In this document: one piece after another, positions 46,536-51,414 of the stretch
Layout: the number at the start of each line of letters is the position of its first letter
How positions within the stretch are numbered: the first letter of the stretch is position 1
Source: Acutalibacteraceae bacterium
Lineage (GTDB): Bacteria > Bacillota > Clostridia > Oscillospirales > Acutalibacteraceae
DNA length: 64,000 nt
Reading direction: 5' to 3'
NCBI GenBank assembly: GCA_045659065.1
Contig: JAZOWF010000064.1
Span: forward strand, 169-64,168
Translations under genes and position numbers: made by a program
The notes under the pieces: model-generated
What the model was told of the DNA's origin: nothing
The model's input: only the letters and a program-made list of their open reading frames with translations
Databases searched by the model: none

Positions 46536-47702
46536 TTAAAAAACAAGAGTATCAACCTTATCAAGAGTCTCGGTGAGATTTTTGGTGTAATGAGCAACGG
46601 TCACTTCATCAGCATCTCTGCGCAGACAGCGTCTGAGAAGGCGCATATATCCGATAATCTTTGCTTTATTTTCAGTGTCGGTTATTACATTTTCATCATC
46701 AGTACCGAGATATCTTGCAAGTGAAAGACGCCAGAAGCGGCGGGCTGTTTCACTGTCAAAGCCAAAGAAGTTTTCAACAGATGTATTATCAAGCTCACCA
46801 AAGCCTATAAAAGCATTGAACATTGAGCCAAGCTCAAGAACGGGATGTCCTACTGCAAGAGTATCCATATCAATAAGAATAGGCTCACCGTTCTGCACCA
46901 TAACATTGTTTGTATGGTAGTCACCGTGAATGACATGATTGCTGTCAGGGATGCCCTCAATCAGAGAACGCATTTTCTGTGCATGAGCCTCATCAAGATA
47001 ATCTGAAAGGAAATCAACCCATTCAAGCACCCATTTTTTGAAATCGGGAAGATCACTGGGCTGAGTTTCGATTGAATGGACCTCTTTGATGGTGTCAATA
47101 TAATAAGCAACGCTCTGAGATAAATCAACCTTATTTGCTCTGATAAGCTTTGTTACCGAGGTTGCATTGAGAAGCTCAGTCAGACTGCCGTATCCGTCGC
47201 CGATGCGGACAATGCCGTAAGGAATTGCCGTGTTGACACCGAGAACGAAGGCTCTTCTTGCATTTTCACGCTCCTGCATAATTTCGGGAAGAGCATCTCT
47301 GTTGAAATACTGCTTAACAATTGTTTCGTTGTCATAGCGGTAAACAGCACCGTTTGCACCCTTTGCAATAAACTCACAGCTGTCAAGGTCTATTCTGCGG
47401 TAGGTTTTTTCAACAGTCATCATCTCTGTAAAGCCTGTCATTTCGAAAATACCGTAAACCTCGGGTGAAACATTGATAATTGCAAGCTTAGGCTCTTCTT
47501 TTCTCAAACGCAGCATAATACGAAGACCTGCACTTGAAATATATTCAAGTGCATCAGCATCAAGGACTGTATGCATTCCCTGATTTGCTTTTCTTACCTC
47601 GTTGATGTCCTTTTCAACATCGGCAGCATTTGAAGCATCAATTCTGCCTTTAAGATTTATGTATAAAATGTCTTTATCAGTTCTGAATTCAATTTTGTTC
47701 AT
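46536..47702 (-). CDS. STAS domain fused to an APH/choline-kinase-like phosphotransferase domain
   Basis: N-terminal STAS (ILYINLKGRIDASNA..LEYISSAGLRIMLRL). C-terminal Brenner motif HGDYHTNNVMV and IDMDT. Confidence 0.75.
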   Translation of the reverse strand: MNKIEFRTDKDILYINLKGRIDASNAADVEKDINEVRKANQGMHTVLDADALEYISSAGLRIMLRLRKEEPKLAIINVSPEVYGIFEMTGFTEMMTVEKTYRRIDLDSCEFIAKGANGAVYRYDNETIVKQYFNRDALPEIMQERENARRAFVLGVNTAIPYGIVRIGDGYGSLTELLNATSVTKLIRANKVDLSQSVAYYIDTIKEVHSIETQPSDLPDFKKWVLEWVDFLSDYLDEAHAQKMRSLIEGIPDSNHVIHGDYHTNNVMVQNGEPILIDMDTLAVGHPVLELGSMFNAFIGFGELDNTSVENFFGFDSETARRFWRLSLARYLGTDDENVITDTENKAKIIGYMRLLRRCLRRDADEVTVAHYTKNLTETLDKVDTLVF

Positions 47703-47703
47703 T

Positions 47704-48566: not shown

Positions 48567-48579
48567 AAATAAATCTCCT

Positions 48580-51414
48580 TTATATTTTTTTAGTCATTGT
48601 GAGAATATTTTTGCCGTTTTCATTTTTATAAGAAACCGTATCCATGGTTTTCTTTGTGATAAAAATTCCGAGTCCGCCGATGTCTCTTTCAGCCGCAGAA
48701 AGTGTGATATCAGGCTCTGCTCTTTCAAGAGGATTGAAGGGAATTCCCTCGTCTGCTACAACAAGAGTCATCTCTCTTTCCTTTTCGTCAAAGCCGAAGG
48801 AAAGTGAAGCATTTCCCGCGCCGTCCCCGTAGGCATAGCTTGCAATATTGACAAAAATTTCTTCAACGGCAACGCATATTGCCACAGAGTTTTTCATCGG
48901 ACAGTCAAAGCCCTCAAGACACTCTTCCGTAAAAGCAATAACGTCATTCAAGGCTTCCTTTGTTGCAGGAAAGACTTTTTCTTTCATAGCGGCACCTTCT
49001 TTCTTTTTGTAATCAAAAATCAGCATTGTAATGTCGTCAAACTGAGGAGCATTACCTGCGAAAAGATCAATGTCCTTTTTAAGACCTGAAAGCAATTCAT
49101 CAGCTTTCTCAGATTTGTTTTTATCGATATAAGACAGCAGTCTTTCTTCACCGTAAAGAGACTCCTTTTCATCTGTTGCCTCAGTTACACCGTCGGTATA
49201 AAGGAAAATTCTGTCTCCCTTATTCAGAGTCATTTCATTTGAGCGGTATCTCATACCCTCCATACCTGCAAGCACAAAGCCTGTGCGGCTCTTAAGATAT
49301 TCACACTCTCCGTTTGCGTGAACAAGAACAGGGGGATTGTGACCTGCATTTGCAAAGCTGAGAGAGCCTGTTTCAAGATTGATTTTTCCCATCCAGGCTG
49401 TAACAAACATACCCGACTCATTATTTTCACAAAGCTTTTCATTTGCCAGGGTGAAAATTTCATCAACGGAAAGACCTCTTTCCGCAAGATCTCTGATAAT
49501 TGTTTTTGCCGTCATCATAAACATAGCGGCAGGAATACCCTTGCCCGATACGTCAGCGGCAAGGAAAAGCACCGTTTTATCATCGAGGGAATAAAAATCA
49601 TAAAAATCTCCGCCGACCTCTTTTGCAGCAATCATCTGCGCATATATTCCGTATTTTTCTTCATCAGGGAAGTTTGAAGGCAGAGCCGCAAGCTGAATCT
49701 GCTTGGCATATTCCAGCTCCTTGTCAATCCTTGCGGCAGCCTCACCGATGTATCTTTTCAGAGTTGAAACCGTTGAGTTTATATCATCTGAAAGAGAGGA
49801 AAATTCAGCATTTGAACGGACATCAACCTTTACATTCAGGTTGCCTCCGGTAATCTCTGAAAGTGTTTCGTTAATTTTCTGAAGGTTGTTGATGATAACC
49901 TTTTTAATCAGGAAATATATGAAGATGAACAAAGCCGCAAAAATCAGTATCAGCATGAAGATGCTCGTATAAAGAGAAGCGTCTCTCATAAGCATTGCCT
50001 CAGCAAAGGGCATTGCGGCAATAATGCAATAACCTTCTACAAAGGTGAAAACATAAATATATTCTTCACTGAAATCGGTTTCATTATTGATAATATTTGT
50101 CTTATAAAGCTGAGCTGCGGTTTTTCCCTGAAGCATTACCTCATCGGGAACAATTCCGATTGTTGAAATATGCTCTCCGTTCCTGTCTGTATGTGTCACA
50201 AGATTGAAATTTTCATCACAGACAGCAACAAAGCCCGTGCTTCCGACGTGACGGTTCTGAGTTACTTCAACAACAAAATCGTCAAGCATATCGTGGAACT
50301 GATCCGCATCATAGCCAACCTGAATAAATCCGCCGCCCTTAAGGCTGATGCCTGCATACTTTCTCATTGTCACACCGTCGTAGCCCTGGGGGCTGTACAC
50401 CTGTACAAGCTGATTTTTCTCGCCTGTCAGCGCCATAAATTCCTTTGACTGCTCGGTGCTGTTCATATTGAAAATTCCCACAAGCTCTTCATCGGTGGAG
50501 GCAATAATCATACCGTCATCGGCAACAACGTTGATTTCGGTAACGTTATATTTTTTTGCAAGAGAATCAAGAGAAACACCTTTGTTTTTTTCATATTCCA
50601 GAAGTATATCTTCCGTAATTCCCAGAAGGTTTTCGTCAGATTTTCCTCTTACGTCTGAGATGACATCGTTGATTGCTGAAGTGAAAACCTCTCTTGTTTC
50701 AATTTGAGCCATACCGCTCTGAAGAAAATATGTAAAGGTACTTGTTATTACACAGGCAATAACAATCAGAACAAGCAGTCTTCTCTGGAAGGTCTGTGAA
50801 ATACGTTCGTTTGTTTTGCCCTGCTTTCTTTCTTCGTGATTCAGAACAGAAACAACTATAAGTGAAAATCCGACAGCAACGGAGTTACCGATAATCATCG
50901 GGATGGTTGCAGCCTTGACAAACTCAAAGGCATAGGATGAATCGCTCATATTTGTAAAGAAAATCATAAGCATGTGAAGAACCTCACACACAACGGTTAT
51001 AAACACTCCGTAGCTCCAGGTAGGCTTTTTGTTATCAAACATAAAACGTCTGAGCACTGCTGCAATGACACCTGCAAGCATTGTTGAAAGTGTGCAGGCA
51101 ATTCTTGTATATACTCCTCCGCCCCAGTAAACAGAGAAGAAACGGTACAAGCCGCCCACAACACCGGAAATAACTCCTGAGGGGCCGCCGAAAATAAGAC
51201 CTGCACAAAGAGGTGCGGCATCACGGACGTTGGCAACAGTGCCGAGAATTTCAACTCCGTAGCCCGAAGCAAAGGCAGACAAGCCGCCGAAAACCAGACC
51301 AATCAGTATTTGTTTTGTAATATAATTAAGGTTTTTGAATTTTGTCTTTTTCTCAAGCAGATAAAAAACCGTGACGAAAACACAGTTCAATAAAATCGGA
51401 ACTAAAAGCTTCAT
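48580..51414 (-). CDS. Membrane sensor: 5TM-LytS-type N-domain, extracytoplasmic Cache-like domain, HAMP, PP2C (SpoIIE/RsbU) phosphatase, C-terminal RsbW/SpoIIAB-like HATPase kinase
   Basis: 944 aa. PP2C motifs EVGGDFYDF, ADVSGKGIPAA, DGVTEA, FDDITML. C-terminal EEIFVNIASYAY..ADEGIPFNP..GGLGIF (HATPase_c). Confidence 0.75.
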   Translation of the reverse strand: MKLLVPILLNCVFVTVFYLLEKKTKFKNLNYITKQILIGLVFGGLSAFASGYGVEILGTVANVRDAAPLCAGLIFGGPSGVISGVVGGLYRFFSVYWGGGVYTRIACTLSTMLAGVIAAVLRRFMFDNKKPTWSYGVFITVVCEVLHMLMIFFTNMSDSSYAFEFVKAATIPMIIGNSVAVGFSLIVVSVLNHEERKQGKTNERISQTFQRRLLVLIVIACVITSTFTYFLQSGMAQIETREVFTSAINDVISDVRGKSDENLLGITEDILLEYEKNKGVSLDSLAKKYNVTEINVVADDGMIIASTDEELVGIFNMNSTEQSKEFMALTGEKNQLVQVYSPQGYDGVTMRKYAGISLKGGGFIQVGYDADQFHDMLDDFVVEVTQNRHVGSTGFVAVCDENFNLVTHTDRNGEHISTIGIVPDEVMLQGKTAAQLYKTNIINNETDFSEEYIYVFTFVEGYCIIAAMPFAEAMLMRDASLYTSIFMLILIFAALFIFIYFLIKKVIINNLQKINETLSEITGGNLNVKVDVRSNAEFSSLSDDINSTVSTLKRYIGEAAARIDKELEYAKQIQLAALPSNFPDEEKYGIYAQMIAAKEVGGDFYDFYSLDDKTVLFLAADVSGKGIPAAMFMMTAKTIIRDLAERGLSVDEIFTLANEKLCENNESGMFVTAWMGKINLETGSLSFANAGHNPPVLVHANGECEYLKSRTGFVLAGMEGMRYRSNEMTLNKGDRIFLYTDGVTEATDEKESLYGEERLLSYIDKNKSEKADELLSGLKKDIDLFAGNAPQFDDITMLIFDYKKKEGAAMKEKVFPATKEALNDVIAFTEECLEGFDCPMKNSVAICVAVEEIFVNIASYAYGDGAGNASLSFGFDEKEREMTLVVADEGIPFNPLERAEPDITLSAAERDIGGLGIFITKKTMDTVSYKNENGKNILTMTKKI

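What the first reader, a model, noticed from the sequence alone, without database searches (positions are those of the whole stretch)
46536..51414. Partner-switching operon without a sigma factor: sensor PP2C/anti-sigma-kinase fusion, two STAS proteins, an HD (alarmone-hydrolase-like) protein and a STAS-APH kinase fusion
One 944-aa membrane protein combines a LytS-type 5TM domain, a periplasmic Cache-like domain, HAMP, a SpoIIE/RsbU PP2C phosphatase and an RsbW/SpoIIAB-type HATPase. The opposing kinase and phosphatase of a partner switch are thus in one polypeptide.

It is followed, with overlapping or abutting stop and start codons, by three genes:
- a free STAS antagonist (DYISSAGLRVLL);
- a 189-aa SpoT/Mesh1-like HD hydrolase;
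- a protein in which a second STAS domain (EYISSAGLRIMLRL) is fused to an aminoglycoside/choline-kinase-fold phosphotransferase (HGDYHTNNVMV, IDMDT).

No sigma factor is encoded nearby. The inferred logic is that an extracytoplasmic signal sets STAS phosphorylation, which then controls small-molecule enzymes (a possible (p)ppGpp or related nucleotide hydrolase, and an unknown kinase) instead of transcription. PP2C-HATPase fusions are known. This particular output combination is something I cannot match to a described system.
Basis: partly seen in the sequence, partly recalled or inferred. Interest (0 to 1): 0.66.

Follow-up and report, generated by a model that had tools for sequence, protein, structure and literature searches.

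The report
Sigma-less phospho-switch controlling a kinase-hydrolase pair
A gut Clostridia operon couples a membrane sensor with opposing protein-kinase and phosphatase domains to an uncharacterised kinase carrying its own switch domain and to an alarmone-hydrolase-like enzyme; the arrangement is conserved across many bacteria and has not been described.

Summary
Four minus-strand, tightly coupled genes (46536-51414) encode a 944-aa sensor (5TMR-LYT, extracytoplasmic domain, HAMP, PP2C, RsbW-type HATPase), a 98-aa STAS protein, a 189-aa RelH-like small alarmone hydrolase (HD_4), and a STAS-APH-fold kinase fusion. Two details fail. 'Cache-like' has no profile support, and the fusion gene starts at ATG 47702 (388 aa), not TTG 47726.

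No sigma factor was found among the 39 window ORFs scanned with Pfam.

The module is one member of a large unstudied family: STAS-APH has at least 624 clusters at 50% identity. In 83 loci with enough flank, STAS is always fused to the kinase. HD_4 lies directly upstream in 63%, and an RsbW-type HATPase is nearby in 70%.

The same parts are reshuffled elsewhere (STAS-APH-HATPase, HATPase-STAS-APH, HD_4-STAS-APH). In one clade HD_4 is replaced by a TrpH-like PHP nucleotide phosphatase. All catalytic and phospho-acceptor residues are conserved.

Best reading: a sigma-less partner-switch-type phospho-switch gates the fused kinase, and the hydrolase works in the same pathway, possibly on a nucleotide or an RNA 3' end.

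This is a new variant of a known kind. Substrates are unknown.

The parts
48580..51414 (-). Sensor protein, 944 aa: about 7 TM helices including 5TMR-LYT, an extracytoplasmic domain, a TM helix, HAMP, a PP2C phosphatase and an RsbW-type HATPase Ser kinase
   Evidence: Pfam and NCBIfam. Full-length homologues at 49-88% identity sit at the same operon position.
50854..51324 (-). 5TM-5TMR_LYT membrane domain (aa 31-187)
   Evidence: Pfam PF07694, E 3.5e-26.
49969..50718 (-). Extracytoplasmic domain of about 250 aa between two TM helices (aa ~233-482). Its fold is unassigned; the 'Cache-like' call is not supported.
   Evidence: No Pfam family at E<=10 except a sub-threshold Diacid_rec hit. A profile search of PDB sequences found nothing. 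Conserved in 22 homologues.
49756..49899 (-). HAMP linker (aa 506-553), below the Pfam threshold
   Evidence: PF00672, 20.5 bits against a cut-off of 25. NCBIfam histidine-kinase and MCP models align to this region.
49009..49584 (-). PP2C (SpoIIE/RsbU-type) phosphatase domain (aa 611-802)
   Evidence: PF07228, E 6.6e-54. The GGDFYD, ADVSGKG, TDG and DDxT motifs are invariant or nearly so in 69 homologues.
48589..48972 (-). HATPase_c_2 (RsbW/SpoIIAB-type Ser kinase) domain (aa 815-942)
   Evidence: PF13581, E 2e-24, with weak RsbW and SpoIIAB NCBIfam hits. The N-box Glu/Asn, G1 Asp and G2 GGxG are conserved in 109 homologues.
48270..48566 (-). Free STAS protein (98 aa). Predicted phospho-acceptor is Ser54 (codon 48405-48407) in YISSAGLR.
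   Evidence: PF01740, E 2.3e-20; TIGR00377, 1.1e-21. Y51, S53, S54, A55, G56, L57 and R58 are invariant in 106 free STAS homologues.
47704..48273 (-). Single-domain HD_4 hydrolase (189 aa), a RelH-like small alarmone hydrolase
   Evidence: PF13328, E 4.4e-20; TIGR00691 hydrolase part, 1.2e-23. Best PDB sequence matches are RelH of C. glutamicum 7QOC/7QOD (3.5e-22), Lmo0812 4YF1 and RelH of Leptospira 7QOE. H31, H55, D56, E59, D60, D123 and N127 are conserved in 86 homologues.
46536..47702 (-). STAS-APH fusion (388 aa, start ATG 47702). STAS spans aa ~4-101 and the APH-fold kinase aa ~105-388. Predicted phospho-acceptor is Ser57 (codon 47532-47534).
   Evidence: Pfam STAS plus APH. TIGR02172-like, 105.7 bits, below the cut-off. 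AF2 model has pLDDT 96.5 and pTM 0.87. Foldseek best hits are APH(2''), APH(3'), APH(4) and MTR kinase. S57, R61, K130, H259, N266 and D278 are invariant, and D261 and E144 are >=90% conserved, in 77 sequences at 31-49% identity.
51427..52398 (-). Conserved hypothetical protein 'UP323' (320-323 aa, C-terminal hydrophobic helix), 12 nt upstream of the sensor. It is a likely operon member of unknown role.
   Evidence: No Pfam, NCBIfam or PADLOC hit. There are 5788 homologue clusters, all unnamed. It is found next to the module in 25% of loci, including loci that lack the sensor (L034, L036, L040, L049). The AF2 model has pLDDT 83.8, and no meaningful PDB match was found.

Best explanation
This is a partner-switch-type phospho-switch without a sigma factor. 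Its output is enzymatic.

Proposed mechanism:
- The membrane sensor reads an extracytoplasmic or membrane cue.
- That cue shifts the balance between the sensor's own PP2C phosphatase and RsbW-type Ser kinase domains.
- Their substrates are the conserved serines of the two STAS domains: Ser54 of the free STAS protein and Ser57 of the STAS domain fused to the APH-fold kinase.
- The phosphorylation state of the fused STAS domain switches the attached kinase on or off. This mirrors the STAS-glycosyltransferase All4160 of Anabaena.
- The RelH-like HD_4 hydrolase is translationally coupled to the kinase gene and works in the same pathway. Most likely it removes the phosphate or pyrophosphate ester that the kinase (or a related enzyme) places on a ribose hydroxyl of a nucleotide or an RNA 3' end. 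That would make the two enzymes a writer-eraser pair.
- The free STAS protein is a second substrate that buffers or sharpens the switch, or carries the signal to another partner.

Shown here: domain identities, intact catalytic and acceptor residues, gene order, conservation and domain shuffling.

Inferred: who phosphorylates whom, the sign of regulation, and the substrates of the kinase and the hydrolase.
For: 1. All domains are confirmed with strong E-values. Catalytic motifs of PP2C, HATPase, HD_4 and APH, and both STAS serines, are conserved across 69-109 homologues.

2. The genes are coupled by a 13-nt gap, a 4-nt overlap and a 1-nt gap.

3. In 83 loci with sufficient flank, at 46-88% identity:
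- STAS-APH fusion, 100%;
- HD_4 directly upstream on the same strand, 63%, and never elsewhere;
- free STAS, 70%;
- RsbW-type HATPase, 70%;
- PP2C, 57%.
HD association is spread over 9 of 11 sequence clades.

4. The same components are shuffled among polypeptides:
- PP2C-HATPase fusions, stand-alone HATPase, and STAS-APH-HATPase in 27 loci;
- HATPase-STAS-APH and HD_4-STAS-APH among family representatives.

5. In the STAS-APH-HATPase clade the HD gene is absent. A TrpH-like PHP gene lies 1-66 nt downstream in 16 of the 17 PHP-bearing loci (442 nt in L103). Its best NCBIfam match is 3',5'-nucleoside bisphosphate phosphatase. With the flank filter the counts are HD only 70, PHP only 11, both 0. 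Rare fusions to PHP and to a PcnB/CCA-adding nucleotidyltransferase head also exist.

6. No sigma factor was found among the 39 window ORFs scanned with Pfam. None appears among the recurrent neighbour families of 160 loci.

7. There is precedent for a STAS-enzyme fusion controlled by a PP2C and anti-sigma-type kinases (PMC13555669).
Against: - There are no biochemical data for any member.
- 37% of loci lack HD_4, so the hydrolase is not obligatory.
- 22% of loci have no PP2C, HATPase or free STAS within 5 kb, so the switch enzymes can be encoded elsewhere or be absent.
- The PHP replacement is a single clade, so it counts as one evolutionary event.
- Some Rosetta-stone fusions are known from one contig only (P0196, P0132, P0179) and could be assembly or frameshift artefacts.
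- Foldseek gives only a generic APH fold (TM 0.5-0.6, 10-19% identity), so the kinase substrate is open.
- The closest characterised relatives of the HD protein hydrolyse (pp)pGpp made by RSH synthetases, which needs no APH-fold kinase.
- The organism is a spore former (YqfD and GerA in the window), so it has sigma F and its own partner switch elsewhere.
Confidence: 0.5

Rival explanations
1. Two independent outputs. STAS phosphorylation separately controls (i) an ordinary (p)ppGpp/(p)ppApp hydrolase, through binding of the free STAS protein, and (ii) an unrelated small-molecule kinase.
For: The HD protein is most similar to bona fide (pp)pGpp hydrolases (RelH) and has all catalytic residues. 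A free STAS gene precedes and overlaps the HD gene in the window. Free STAS proteins that activate enzymes are known, for example SiaC-SiaD and HsbA-HsbD.
Against: HD follows the kinase, not the free STAS. 12% of loci have HD plus STAS-APH with no free STAS, PP2C or HATPase nearby. HD is fused to STAS-APH in some relatives. One clade replaces it with a different nucleotide phosphatase at the kinase gene.
Confidence: 0.2
2. The APH-fold domain is itself a protein kinase. It phosphorylates STAS domains or another protein, so the module is a protein-phosphorylation cascade and not a small-molecule or nucleotide pathway.
For: The APH fold is shared with protein kinases. There are weak NCBIfam hits to the YihE/SrkA-type Ser/Thr kinase, CotS and Bud32. 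Ser57 is invariant even in loci with no HATPase nearby.
Against: The best structural neighbours are small-molecule kinases (APH(2''), APH(3'), APH(4), MTR kinase). An intact RsbW-type kinase is present in 70% of loci and is fused to STAS-APH in 27 loci, which makes a second STAS kinase redundant. The linked hydrolases, HD_4 and TrpH-like PHP, belong to nucleotide-directed families, not protein-phosphatase families.
Confidence: 0.12
3. A classical anti-sigma partner switch. The HATPase domain sequesters a sigma factor encoded elsewhere, and the HD and APH genes are metabolic passengers.
For: The HATPase_c_2, STAS and PP2C families are those of RsbW/RsbV/RsbU and SpoIIAB/AA/E. The host is a spore former and must encode sigma F elsewhere.
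Against: No sigma factor was found among the 39 window ORFs scanned with Pfam or among recurrent neighbours in 160 loci. The HATPase is part of a membrane protein, or is fused to STAS-APH. Gene order and fusions tie HD and APH to the switch across about 50% sequence divergence.
Confidence: 0.08
4. A toxin-antitoxin-like or defence module. The kinase is a growth-arresting toxin, for example one that modifies tRNA 3' ends. The SAH-type HD is its antidote, and the switch is the trigger.
For: SAHs are known antidotes of toxSAS enzymes that pyrophosphorylate tRNA CCA ends (abstracts listed). HD precedes the kinase and is translationally coupled to it. Rare fusions carry HD-CE, YezG-like immunity and CCA-adding or PcnB-like domains, and there are weak TCAD9 hits.
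Against: There are no PADLOC hits and no full-length copies on plasmids or phages. 37% of loci lack HD. The context is stable chromosomal synteny with an envelope sensor and housekeeping-type neighbours.
Confidence: 0.1

Closest known systems
HenR / All4160 / Alr3423 module of Anabaena PCC 7120 (PMC13555669)
   Same: A STAS domain with a phosphorylatable Ser is fused N-terminally to an enzyme. A PP2C phosphatase and anti-sigma-type kinases set its phosphorylation state. The output is enzyme activity, not a sigma factor.
   Different: The enzyme there is a glycosyltransferase for heterocyst polysaccharide; here it is an APH-fold kinase. Here the kinase and phosphatase are in one membrane sensor, and an additional free STAS and an SAH-type hydrolase are part of the operon.
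HsbR-HsbA-HsbD (Pseudomonas) and SypE-SypA (Vibrio fischeri) partner switches
   Same: PP2C and RsbW-type HATPase domains lie in one polypeptide and act on a single-domain STAS protein. The outputs include non-sigma targets (the diguanylate cyclase HsbD, biofilm).
   Different: HsbR and SypE are cytoplasmic and receive input through a receiver domain. Here the input is a 5TMR-LYT/extracytoplasmic/HAMP membrane sensor. No STAS-enzyme fusion or alarmone hydrolase is part of those systems.
SiaABCD of Pseudomonas aeruginosa (PMC8457831)
   Same: A membrane PP2C sensor (SiaA; weak NCBIfam similarity 1.8e-18), a Ser/Thr kinase, and a small switch protein that controls a nucleotide-messenger enzyme.
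   Different: The score is far below the SiaA equivalog cut-off (66 against 700 bits). The kinase SiaB is a separate protein. The output is a GGDEF cyclase activated by binding, with no fused STAS and no hydrolase.
Small alarmone hydrolases RelH (C. glutamicum, Leptospira), Lmo0812 and Mesh1
   Same: A single HD_4 domain of about 190 aa with the full catalytic set. These are the best PDB sequence matches (3.5e-22 to 1.6e-16).
   Different: No known SAH is reported in an operon with STAS, PP2C, HATPase and a kinase. Known bacterial roles are (pp)pGpp/(pp)pApp turnover or toxSAS antidotes. The substrate here is untested.
RsbU-RsbV-RsbW-sigmaB / SpoIIE-SpoIIAA-SpoIIAB-sigmaF
   Same: The same three protein families and the same conserved Ser in the STAS protein.
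   Different: No sigma factor partner is present, the kinase and phosphatase are fused, and a second STAS domain is fused to an enzyme.

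Membership tests
Partner-switching system (RsbU/V/W, SpoIIE/AA/AB type) | STAS antagonist with a conserved phosphorylatable Ser in the DSSG-like loop | tested here: met
   YISSAGLR is present in both STAS domains. The second Ser aligns with the SpoIIAA phospho-Ser. It is invariant in 77 fusion proteins and 106 free STAS proteins.
Partner-switching system (RsbU/V/W, SpoIIE/AA/AB type) | HATPase_c_2 Ser kinase with N, G1 and G2 boxes | tested here: met
   PF13581, E 2e-24. The motifs are conserved in 109 homologues.
Partner-switching system (RsbU/V/W, SpoIIE/AA/AB type) | PP2C (SpoIIE family) phosphatase with metal-binding Asp residues | tested here: met
   PF07228, E 6.6e-54. 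The Asp-containing motifs are invariant in 69 homologues.
Partner-switching system (RsbU/V/W, SpoIIE/AA/AB type) | A sigma factor (or other sequestered target) encoded with the switch and bound by the kinase | tested here: not met
   No sigma factor among the 39 window ORFs scanned or among recurrent neighbours of 160 loci. Binding itself cannot be tested here.
Partner-switching system (RsbU/V/W, SpoIIE/AA/AB type) | Reversible phosphorylation of STAS by the cognate kinase and phosphatase | not testable with these tools
   Requires biochemistry.
Small alarmone hydrolase (RSH superfamily, RelH-like) | Stand-alone HD_4 hydrolase domain without a synthetase domain | tested here: met
   189 aa. 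HD_4 spans aa 8-131. The TIGR00691 match covers only model positions 1-122 of 687.
Small alarmone hydrolase (RSH superfamily, RelH-like) | Catalytic His, HD, ED and DxxxN residues | tested here: met
   H31, H55-D56, E59-D60 and D123/N127 are conserved at >=90-98% in 86 homologues.
Small alarmone hydrolase (RSH superfamily, RelH-like) | Hydrolysis of (pp)pGpp or (pp)pApp | not testable with these tools
   Inferred only from similarity to RelH 7QOC (E 3.5e-22).
toxSAS-SAH toxin-antitoxin pair | An adjacent small alarmone synthetase toxin | tested here: not met
   No RelA/SpoT synthetase was found in the window ORFs scanned. The annotated recurrent neighbour families of 160 loci include none. No dedicated synthetase profile was run on the loci.
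APH / choline-kinase phosphotransferase family (PF01636) | Profile match above the family threshold and a bilobal kinase fold | tested here: met
   59.8 bits against a cut-off of 23.2. The AF2 model matches APH(2''), APH(3'), APH(4) and MTR kinase.
APH / choline-kinase phosphotransferase family (PF01636) | ATP-binding Lys, HxDxxxxN catalytic loop and metal-binding Asp | tested here: met
   K130, H259, N266 and D278 are invariant, and D261 is >=90% conserved.
APH / choline-kinase phosphotransferase family (PF01636) | Aminoglycoside (or another defined) substrate | not testable with these tools
   Identity to aminoglycoside kinases is only 10-19%, so no substrate can be inferred.
TIGR02172 family (NCBIfam) | Score above the curated cut-off | tested here: not met
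   105.7 bits against a cut-off of 228.2. It is related to the family but is not a member.
Cache extracellular sensor domain | Profile or structure match to a Cache family | tested here: not met
   No Cache hit at E<=10. The PDB profile search found nothing.
STAS-enzyme fusions regulated by phosphorylation (All4160 type) | An N-terminal phosphorylatable STAS fused to a catalytic domain, with a PP2C and an anti-sigma-type kinase as partners | tested here: met
   Architecture and adjacency are shown. Regulation itself was not tested. The catalytic domain differs (a kinase, not a glycosyltransferase).

The most novel reading that the evidence does not exclude
STAS-APH proteins are a new class of phospho-switch-gated kinases. 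They phosphorylate a ribose hydroxyl of a nucleotide or of an RNA 3' end (for example tRNA-CCA). This creates either a previously unknown alarmone-like signal or a reversible block on translation. The RelH-like HD_4 hydrolase is the dedicated eraser; in one clade a TrpH-like PHP phosphatase takes that role. The idea rests on the fact that every enzyme repeatedly linked or fused to the kinase acts on nucleotide or RNA 3' ends: HD_4, the TrpH-like PHP, and a PcnB/CCA-adding nucleotidyltransferase head.
Probability: 0.2. Interest if true: 0.9.

Novelty: new variant of a known kind. Interest (0 to 1): 0.62.

Why it matters
Partner switching is usually taught as a way to control sigma factors, and only a few enzyme-output versions are known. 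This module is abundant in ruminant- and human-gut Clostridia: thousands of 90%-identity clusters, and at least 624 clusters at 50% identity.

It would add a third type of output, a kinase gated by its own STAS domain. It would also be the first link between partner switching and the alarmone-hydrolase family.

For most bacteria the physiological role of small alarmone hydrolases outside toxin-antitoxin pairs is unclear. A conserved operon gives a direct experimental handle on that role. If the kinase and hydrolase turn out to write and erase a phosphate on a nucleotide or an RNA end, that would be a new signalling chemistry.

Tried and rejected
- Cache assignment of the extracytoplasmic domain. 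Pfam at E<=10 gave only a sub-threshold Diacid_rec hit. A 23-sequence profile against PDB sequences gave nothing.
- Operon boundaries from promoter and terminator scans. The counts were at the shuffled expectation and uninformative. I relied on intergenic distances instead.
- Anti-phage defence. PADLOC gave no hits for any of seven proteins.
- Mobile-element origin. There are no full-length matches on plasmids or phages.
- UP323 function. It has no family in any library. A good AF2 model (pLDDT 83.8) has no meaningful PDB neighbour (TM <=0.34).
- Literature. I found no paper on STAS-APH fusions, on TIGR02172, or on an SAH within a partner switch.
- Other conserved partners in loci lacking both HD and PHP. 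The neighbours are heterogeneous (M20 peptidase, MatE, an auxin-efflux-type transporter, MscS, one generic HD protein) with no pattern.
- Treating HD/PHP exclusivity as statistical proof. I rejected this because all PHP loci fall in one clade.

Full report
**What is in the sequence**

The region 46536-51414 carries four ORFs on the minus strand.

The sensor (48580-51414, 944 aa) has these Pfam matches:
- 5TM-5TMR_LYT, aa 31-187, E 3.5e-26;
- SpoIIE/PP2C, aa 611-802, E 6.6e-54;
- HATPase_c_2, aa 815-942, E 2e-24;
- HAMP, aa 506-553, 20.5 bits, below the 25-bit cut-off.

The other three genes:
- The 98-aa gene (48270-48566) is a STAS protein (E 2.3e-20; TIGR00377 1.1e-21).
- The 189-aa gene (47704-48273) is a single HD_4 domain. 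It matches only the hydrolase part of RelA/SpoT models.
- The last gene encodes STAS plus an APH-family phosphotransferase (E 1.3e-13 and 4.4e-16). It also has a sub-threshold match to TIGR02172.

The junctions read from the DNA are:
- 13 nt with an AAGGAGA ribosome-binding site;
- an ATGA overlap;
- TGA, one base, then ATG.

The last junction sets the true start of the fusion gene at ATG 47702.

The roughly 250-aa domain between the seventh and eighth hydrophobic segments must be extracytoplasmic by topology. Neither Pfam at E<=10 nor a 23-sequence profile against PDB sequences gives any Cache match, so 'Cache-like' stays unverified.

Pfam scans of 39 ORFs across the 64-kb window found no sigma factor. 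Each domain of the module occurs only once in the window.

**Catalytic competence**

In an alignment of 77 STAS-APH proteins at 31-49% identity to the window protein:
- the STAS Ser57 and Arg61 are invariant;
- the kinase residues Lys130, His259, Asn266 and Asp278 are invariant;
- Asp261 and Glu144 are at least 90% conserved.

Ser57 aligns with the phospho-Ser of SpoIIAA.

In 106 free STAS homologues the Y-I-S-S-A-G-L-R loop is essentially invariant. In 86 HD homologues H31, H55-D56, E59-D60, D123 and N127 are conserved. The metal-binding motifs of the PP2C domain and the N, G1 and G2 boxes of the HATPase domain are conserved in 69 and 109 homologues. All five activities are therefore expected to be real.

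**Identity of the two output enzymes**

By sequence, the HD protein is closest to these solved structures:
- RelH of Corynebacterium glutamicum (7QOC/7QOD, E 3.5e-22);
- Lmo0812 (4YF1);
- RelH of Leptospira (7QOE);
- further away, Mesh1 and long Rel enzymes.

It is therefore a RelH-like small alarmone hydrolase by homology.

AlphaFold2 models the fusion protein with very high confidence (pLDDT 96.5, pTM 0.87). Foldseek places the C-terminal part with aminoglycoside kinases APH(2''), APH(3') and APH(4), and with methylthioribose kinase. TM-scores are only 0.5-0.6 and identity is 10-19%. The fold is confirmed, but the substrate is open.

**Distribution**

The closest genomes are Acutalibacteraceae MAGs from ruminant gut, at 88% identity. 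YqfD and GerA in the window show that the host is a spore former.

STAS-APH is a large family:
- 4846 representatives at 50% identity with E<=1e-3, of which 624 have E<=1e-30;
- the best 150 listed are nearly all about 390 aa and match over both domains.

NCBI names them 'anti-sigma factor antagonist' or 'ATP-binding protein'. I found no paper on them. There is no full-length copy on plasmids or phages, and PADLOC gives no hit.

**Gene neighbourhood**

I fetched 160 loci, 80 from genomes and 80 from metagenomes, at 46-88% identity. I searched them with profiles built from the window's domains.

Among the 83 loci with at least 2.5 kb upstream and 1.8 kb downstream:

| Feature | Share of loci |
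|---|---|
| STAS fused to the kinase | 100% |
| HD_4 immediately upstream, same strand (never elsewhere) | 63% |
| Free STAS | 70% |
| RsbW-type HATPase | 70% |
| PP2C | 57% |
| HD plus STAS-APH only | 12% |

Four layouts recur:
- (A) the window's order: sensor-PP2C-HATPase, STAS, HD, STAS-APH;
- (B) a stand-alone HATPase, HD, STAS-APH, STAS;
- (C) [STAS], PP2C protein, STAS-APH-HATPase triple fusion, PHP protein;
- (D) HD and STAS-APH alone.

The input part of the PP2C protein varies: 5TMR-LYT with the extracytoplasmic domain, other N-termini, or about 595-aa and 725-aa forms. Such variation is typical of signalling modules.

HD association occurs in 9 of 11 sequence clades of the kinase. All triple fusions and all PHP genes fall in a single clade.

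**The hydrolase goes with the kinase**

Three facts tie HD_4 to the APH-fold kinase and not to the free STAS.

1. HD is always the gene directly before the kinase gene, even where no other switch gene is near.

2. Among family representatives there are HD_4-STAS-APH single polypeptides. P0270 is a cluster of two sequences on three contigs. P0196 is known from one contig.

3. In the clade that lacks HD, a TrpH-like PHP phosphoesterase is present. Its best NCBIfam match is 3',5'-nucleoside bisphosphate phosphatase (7.5e-30, below the cut-off). It lies 1-66 nt downstream of the kinase gene in 16 of the 17 PHP-bearing loci, and 442 nt downstream in L103. None of these 17 loci has HD. One representative fuses the PHP domain to the kinase.

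Another representative, with three members on three contigs, fuses the kinase to a PcnB/CCA-adding nucleotidyltransferase head domain.

All three partner enzyme families act on nucleotide or RNA 3' ends. This is guilt by association. The PHP case is one evolutionary event, and several fusions are singletons. The pattern is still coherent.

**Mechanism proposed**

The sensor sets the ratio of its kinase and phosphatase activities. The two STAS serines are the substrates. The fused STAS domain gates the attached kinase.

The closest experimentally studied analogue is Anabaena All4160, a STAS-glycosyltransferase controlled by the PP2C HenR and the kinase Alr3423 (PMC13555669). PP2C-HATPase fusion regulators that act on a free STAS protein with non-sigma outputs are known from Pseudomonas (HsbR-HsbA-HsbD) and Vibrio (SypE-SypA), and SiaABCD controls a diguanylate cyclase.

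The HD hydrolase most likely reverses or limits what the kinase does. Alternatively, it removes (p)ppGpp-type alarmones as a parallel output.

Only the parts list, their intactness and their evolutionary linkage are shown here. Directionality and substrates are inferred.

**Rivals**

I considered four:
- a classical anti-sigma role with a sigma factor elsewhere;
- the APH-fold domain acting as a protein kinase;
- a toxin-antidote or defence module;

None is excluded. Each fits the neighbourhood and fusion data less well than the proposed mechanism. They are scored individually in the rival-explanations section.

**Additional component**

The gene 12 nt upstream of the sensor (51427-52398, 'UP323') has no family assignment, but 5788 homologue clusters exist. 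It accompanies the module in 25% of loci. These include loci with about 50% identity that lack the sensor altogether, for example L049: membrane protein, UP323, STAS, HD, STAS-APH. Its AF2 model is beta-rich with a C-terminal helical anchor (pLDDT 83.8) and has no meaningful PDB neighbour.

**Verdict**

The components and the principle (sigma-less, enzyme-output partner switching, and STAS-enzyme fusion) are known. The specific output, a STAS-gated APH-fold kinase paired with an alarmone-hydrolase-type enzyme, is undescribed and widespread. I rate it a new variant of a known kind, with interest 0.62.

The most novel reading not excluded is a switch-controlled kinase that writes a phosphate on a nucleotide or an RNA 3' end, with HD_4 or PHP as the eraser (probability about 0.2).

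Noticed in passing
window 51427-52398 (-) and 52420-53403 (-): Two hypothetical proteins (323 and 327 aa) lie directly upstream of the sensor, separated by 12-nt and 21-nt gaps. Neither has a Pfam, NCBIfam or PADLOC hit. The first (UP323) is co-conserved with the STAS/HD/STAS-APH genes, even in loci that lack the sensor. Its AF2 model has no PDB neighbour.
   Followed up: partly
L103, L106, L110, L118, L120, L128, L129, L137, L140, L143, L147, L149, L151, L153, L159 (downstream of the fusion gene): In the clade with STAS-APH-HATPase triple fusions the HD gene is missing. A TrpH-like PHP phosphoesterase lies 1-66 nt downstream of the kinase gene in 16 of the 17 PHP-bearing loci (442 nt in L103). 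Its closest family is 3',5'-nucleoside bisphosphate phosphatase / RNase RNM.
   Followed up: yes
P0217 (L161:652-2490), P0179, P0137, P0132, P0196 (L162:4096-5913), P0270: Rare fusions of STAS-APH exist to a PcnB/CCA-adding nucleotidyltransferase head, an HD-CE domain, a YezG-like immunity domain, a PHP domain and an HD_4 domain. In P0270 the STAS Ser is replaced by Asn.
   Followed up: partly
L002, L004, L006-L016, L018, L026 (3' end of the fusion gene): A Flavodoxin_2/FMN-azoreductase-like gene overlaps or abuts the 3' end of the STAS-APH gene in close relatives. It is about 195 aa, or about 430 aa when fused to a Peptidase_C70-like domain. It is absent from the window, where an unrelated membrane-anchored 193-aa protein follows.
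   Followed up: partly
L022, L024, L025, L027, L028, L030, L065, L089: An unassigned protein of about 199 aa and a second free STAS gene are inserted between sensor-STAS and HD-STAS-APH in one clade. The protein has no Pfam or NCBIfam hit.
   Followed up: no
window 43934-46489 (-): Three downstream genes are closely spaced and may be co-transcribed: a 193-aa membrane-anchored protein, a GltD-like Fe-S flavoprotein oxidoreductase (420 aa) and a Pr6Pr-family membrane protein. They are syntenic only in close relatives.
   Followed up: partly
window 37766-42490 (-) and 53469-58604 (-): Two giant ORFs flank the region. One (1574 aa) has no Pfam hit. The other (1711 aa) has Listeria-Bacteroides repeats. 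A sortase and Gram-positive pilin cluster lies at 33590-37688.
   Followed up: no
window 58723-61346 (-): A LytS/YehU-type histidine kinase (His_kinase plus HATPase_c) and a response regulator lie about 7 kb upstream on the same strand. No link to the module was tested.
   Followed up: no
window 8666-9853 (+), 13442-14860 (-), 15701-23915 (-), 24248-25615 (-): The window carries sporulation and germination genes (YqfD, GerA), a V-type ATPase operon and a Hanks-type Ser/Thr kinase. The host is therefore a spore-forming Clostridium-like organism that must carry the sigma F partner switch elsewhere.
   Followed up: no
L029-L076 (CAV... records): Many 'cleanbin' genome records that carry the module at 51-58% identity are labelled as Bacteroides, E. 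coli, Prevotella, Collinsella and so on. These labels are implausible for this Firmicute-type operon. I did not use them for taxonomy.
   Followed up: no
Alignment A1, window fusion protein aa 155-165: A family-specific motif G-[IVL]-P-T-A-I-[SP]-[YF]-[DE] in the kinase N-lobe is nearly invariant across the family. Its role (substrate site or STAS contact) is unknown.
   Followed up: no
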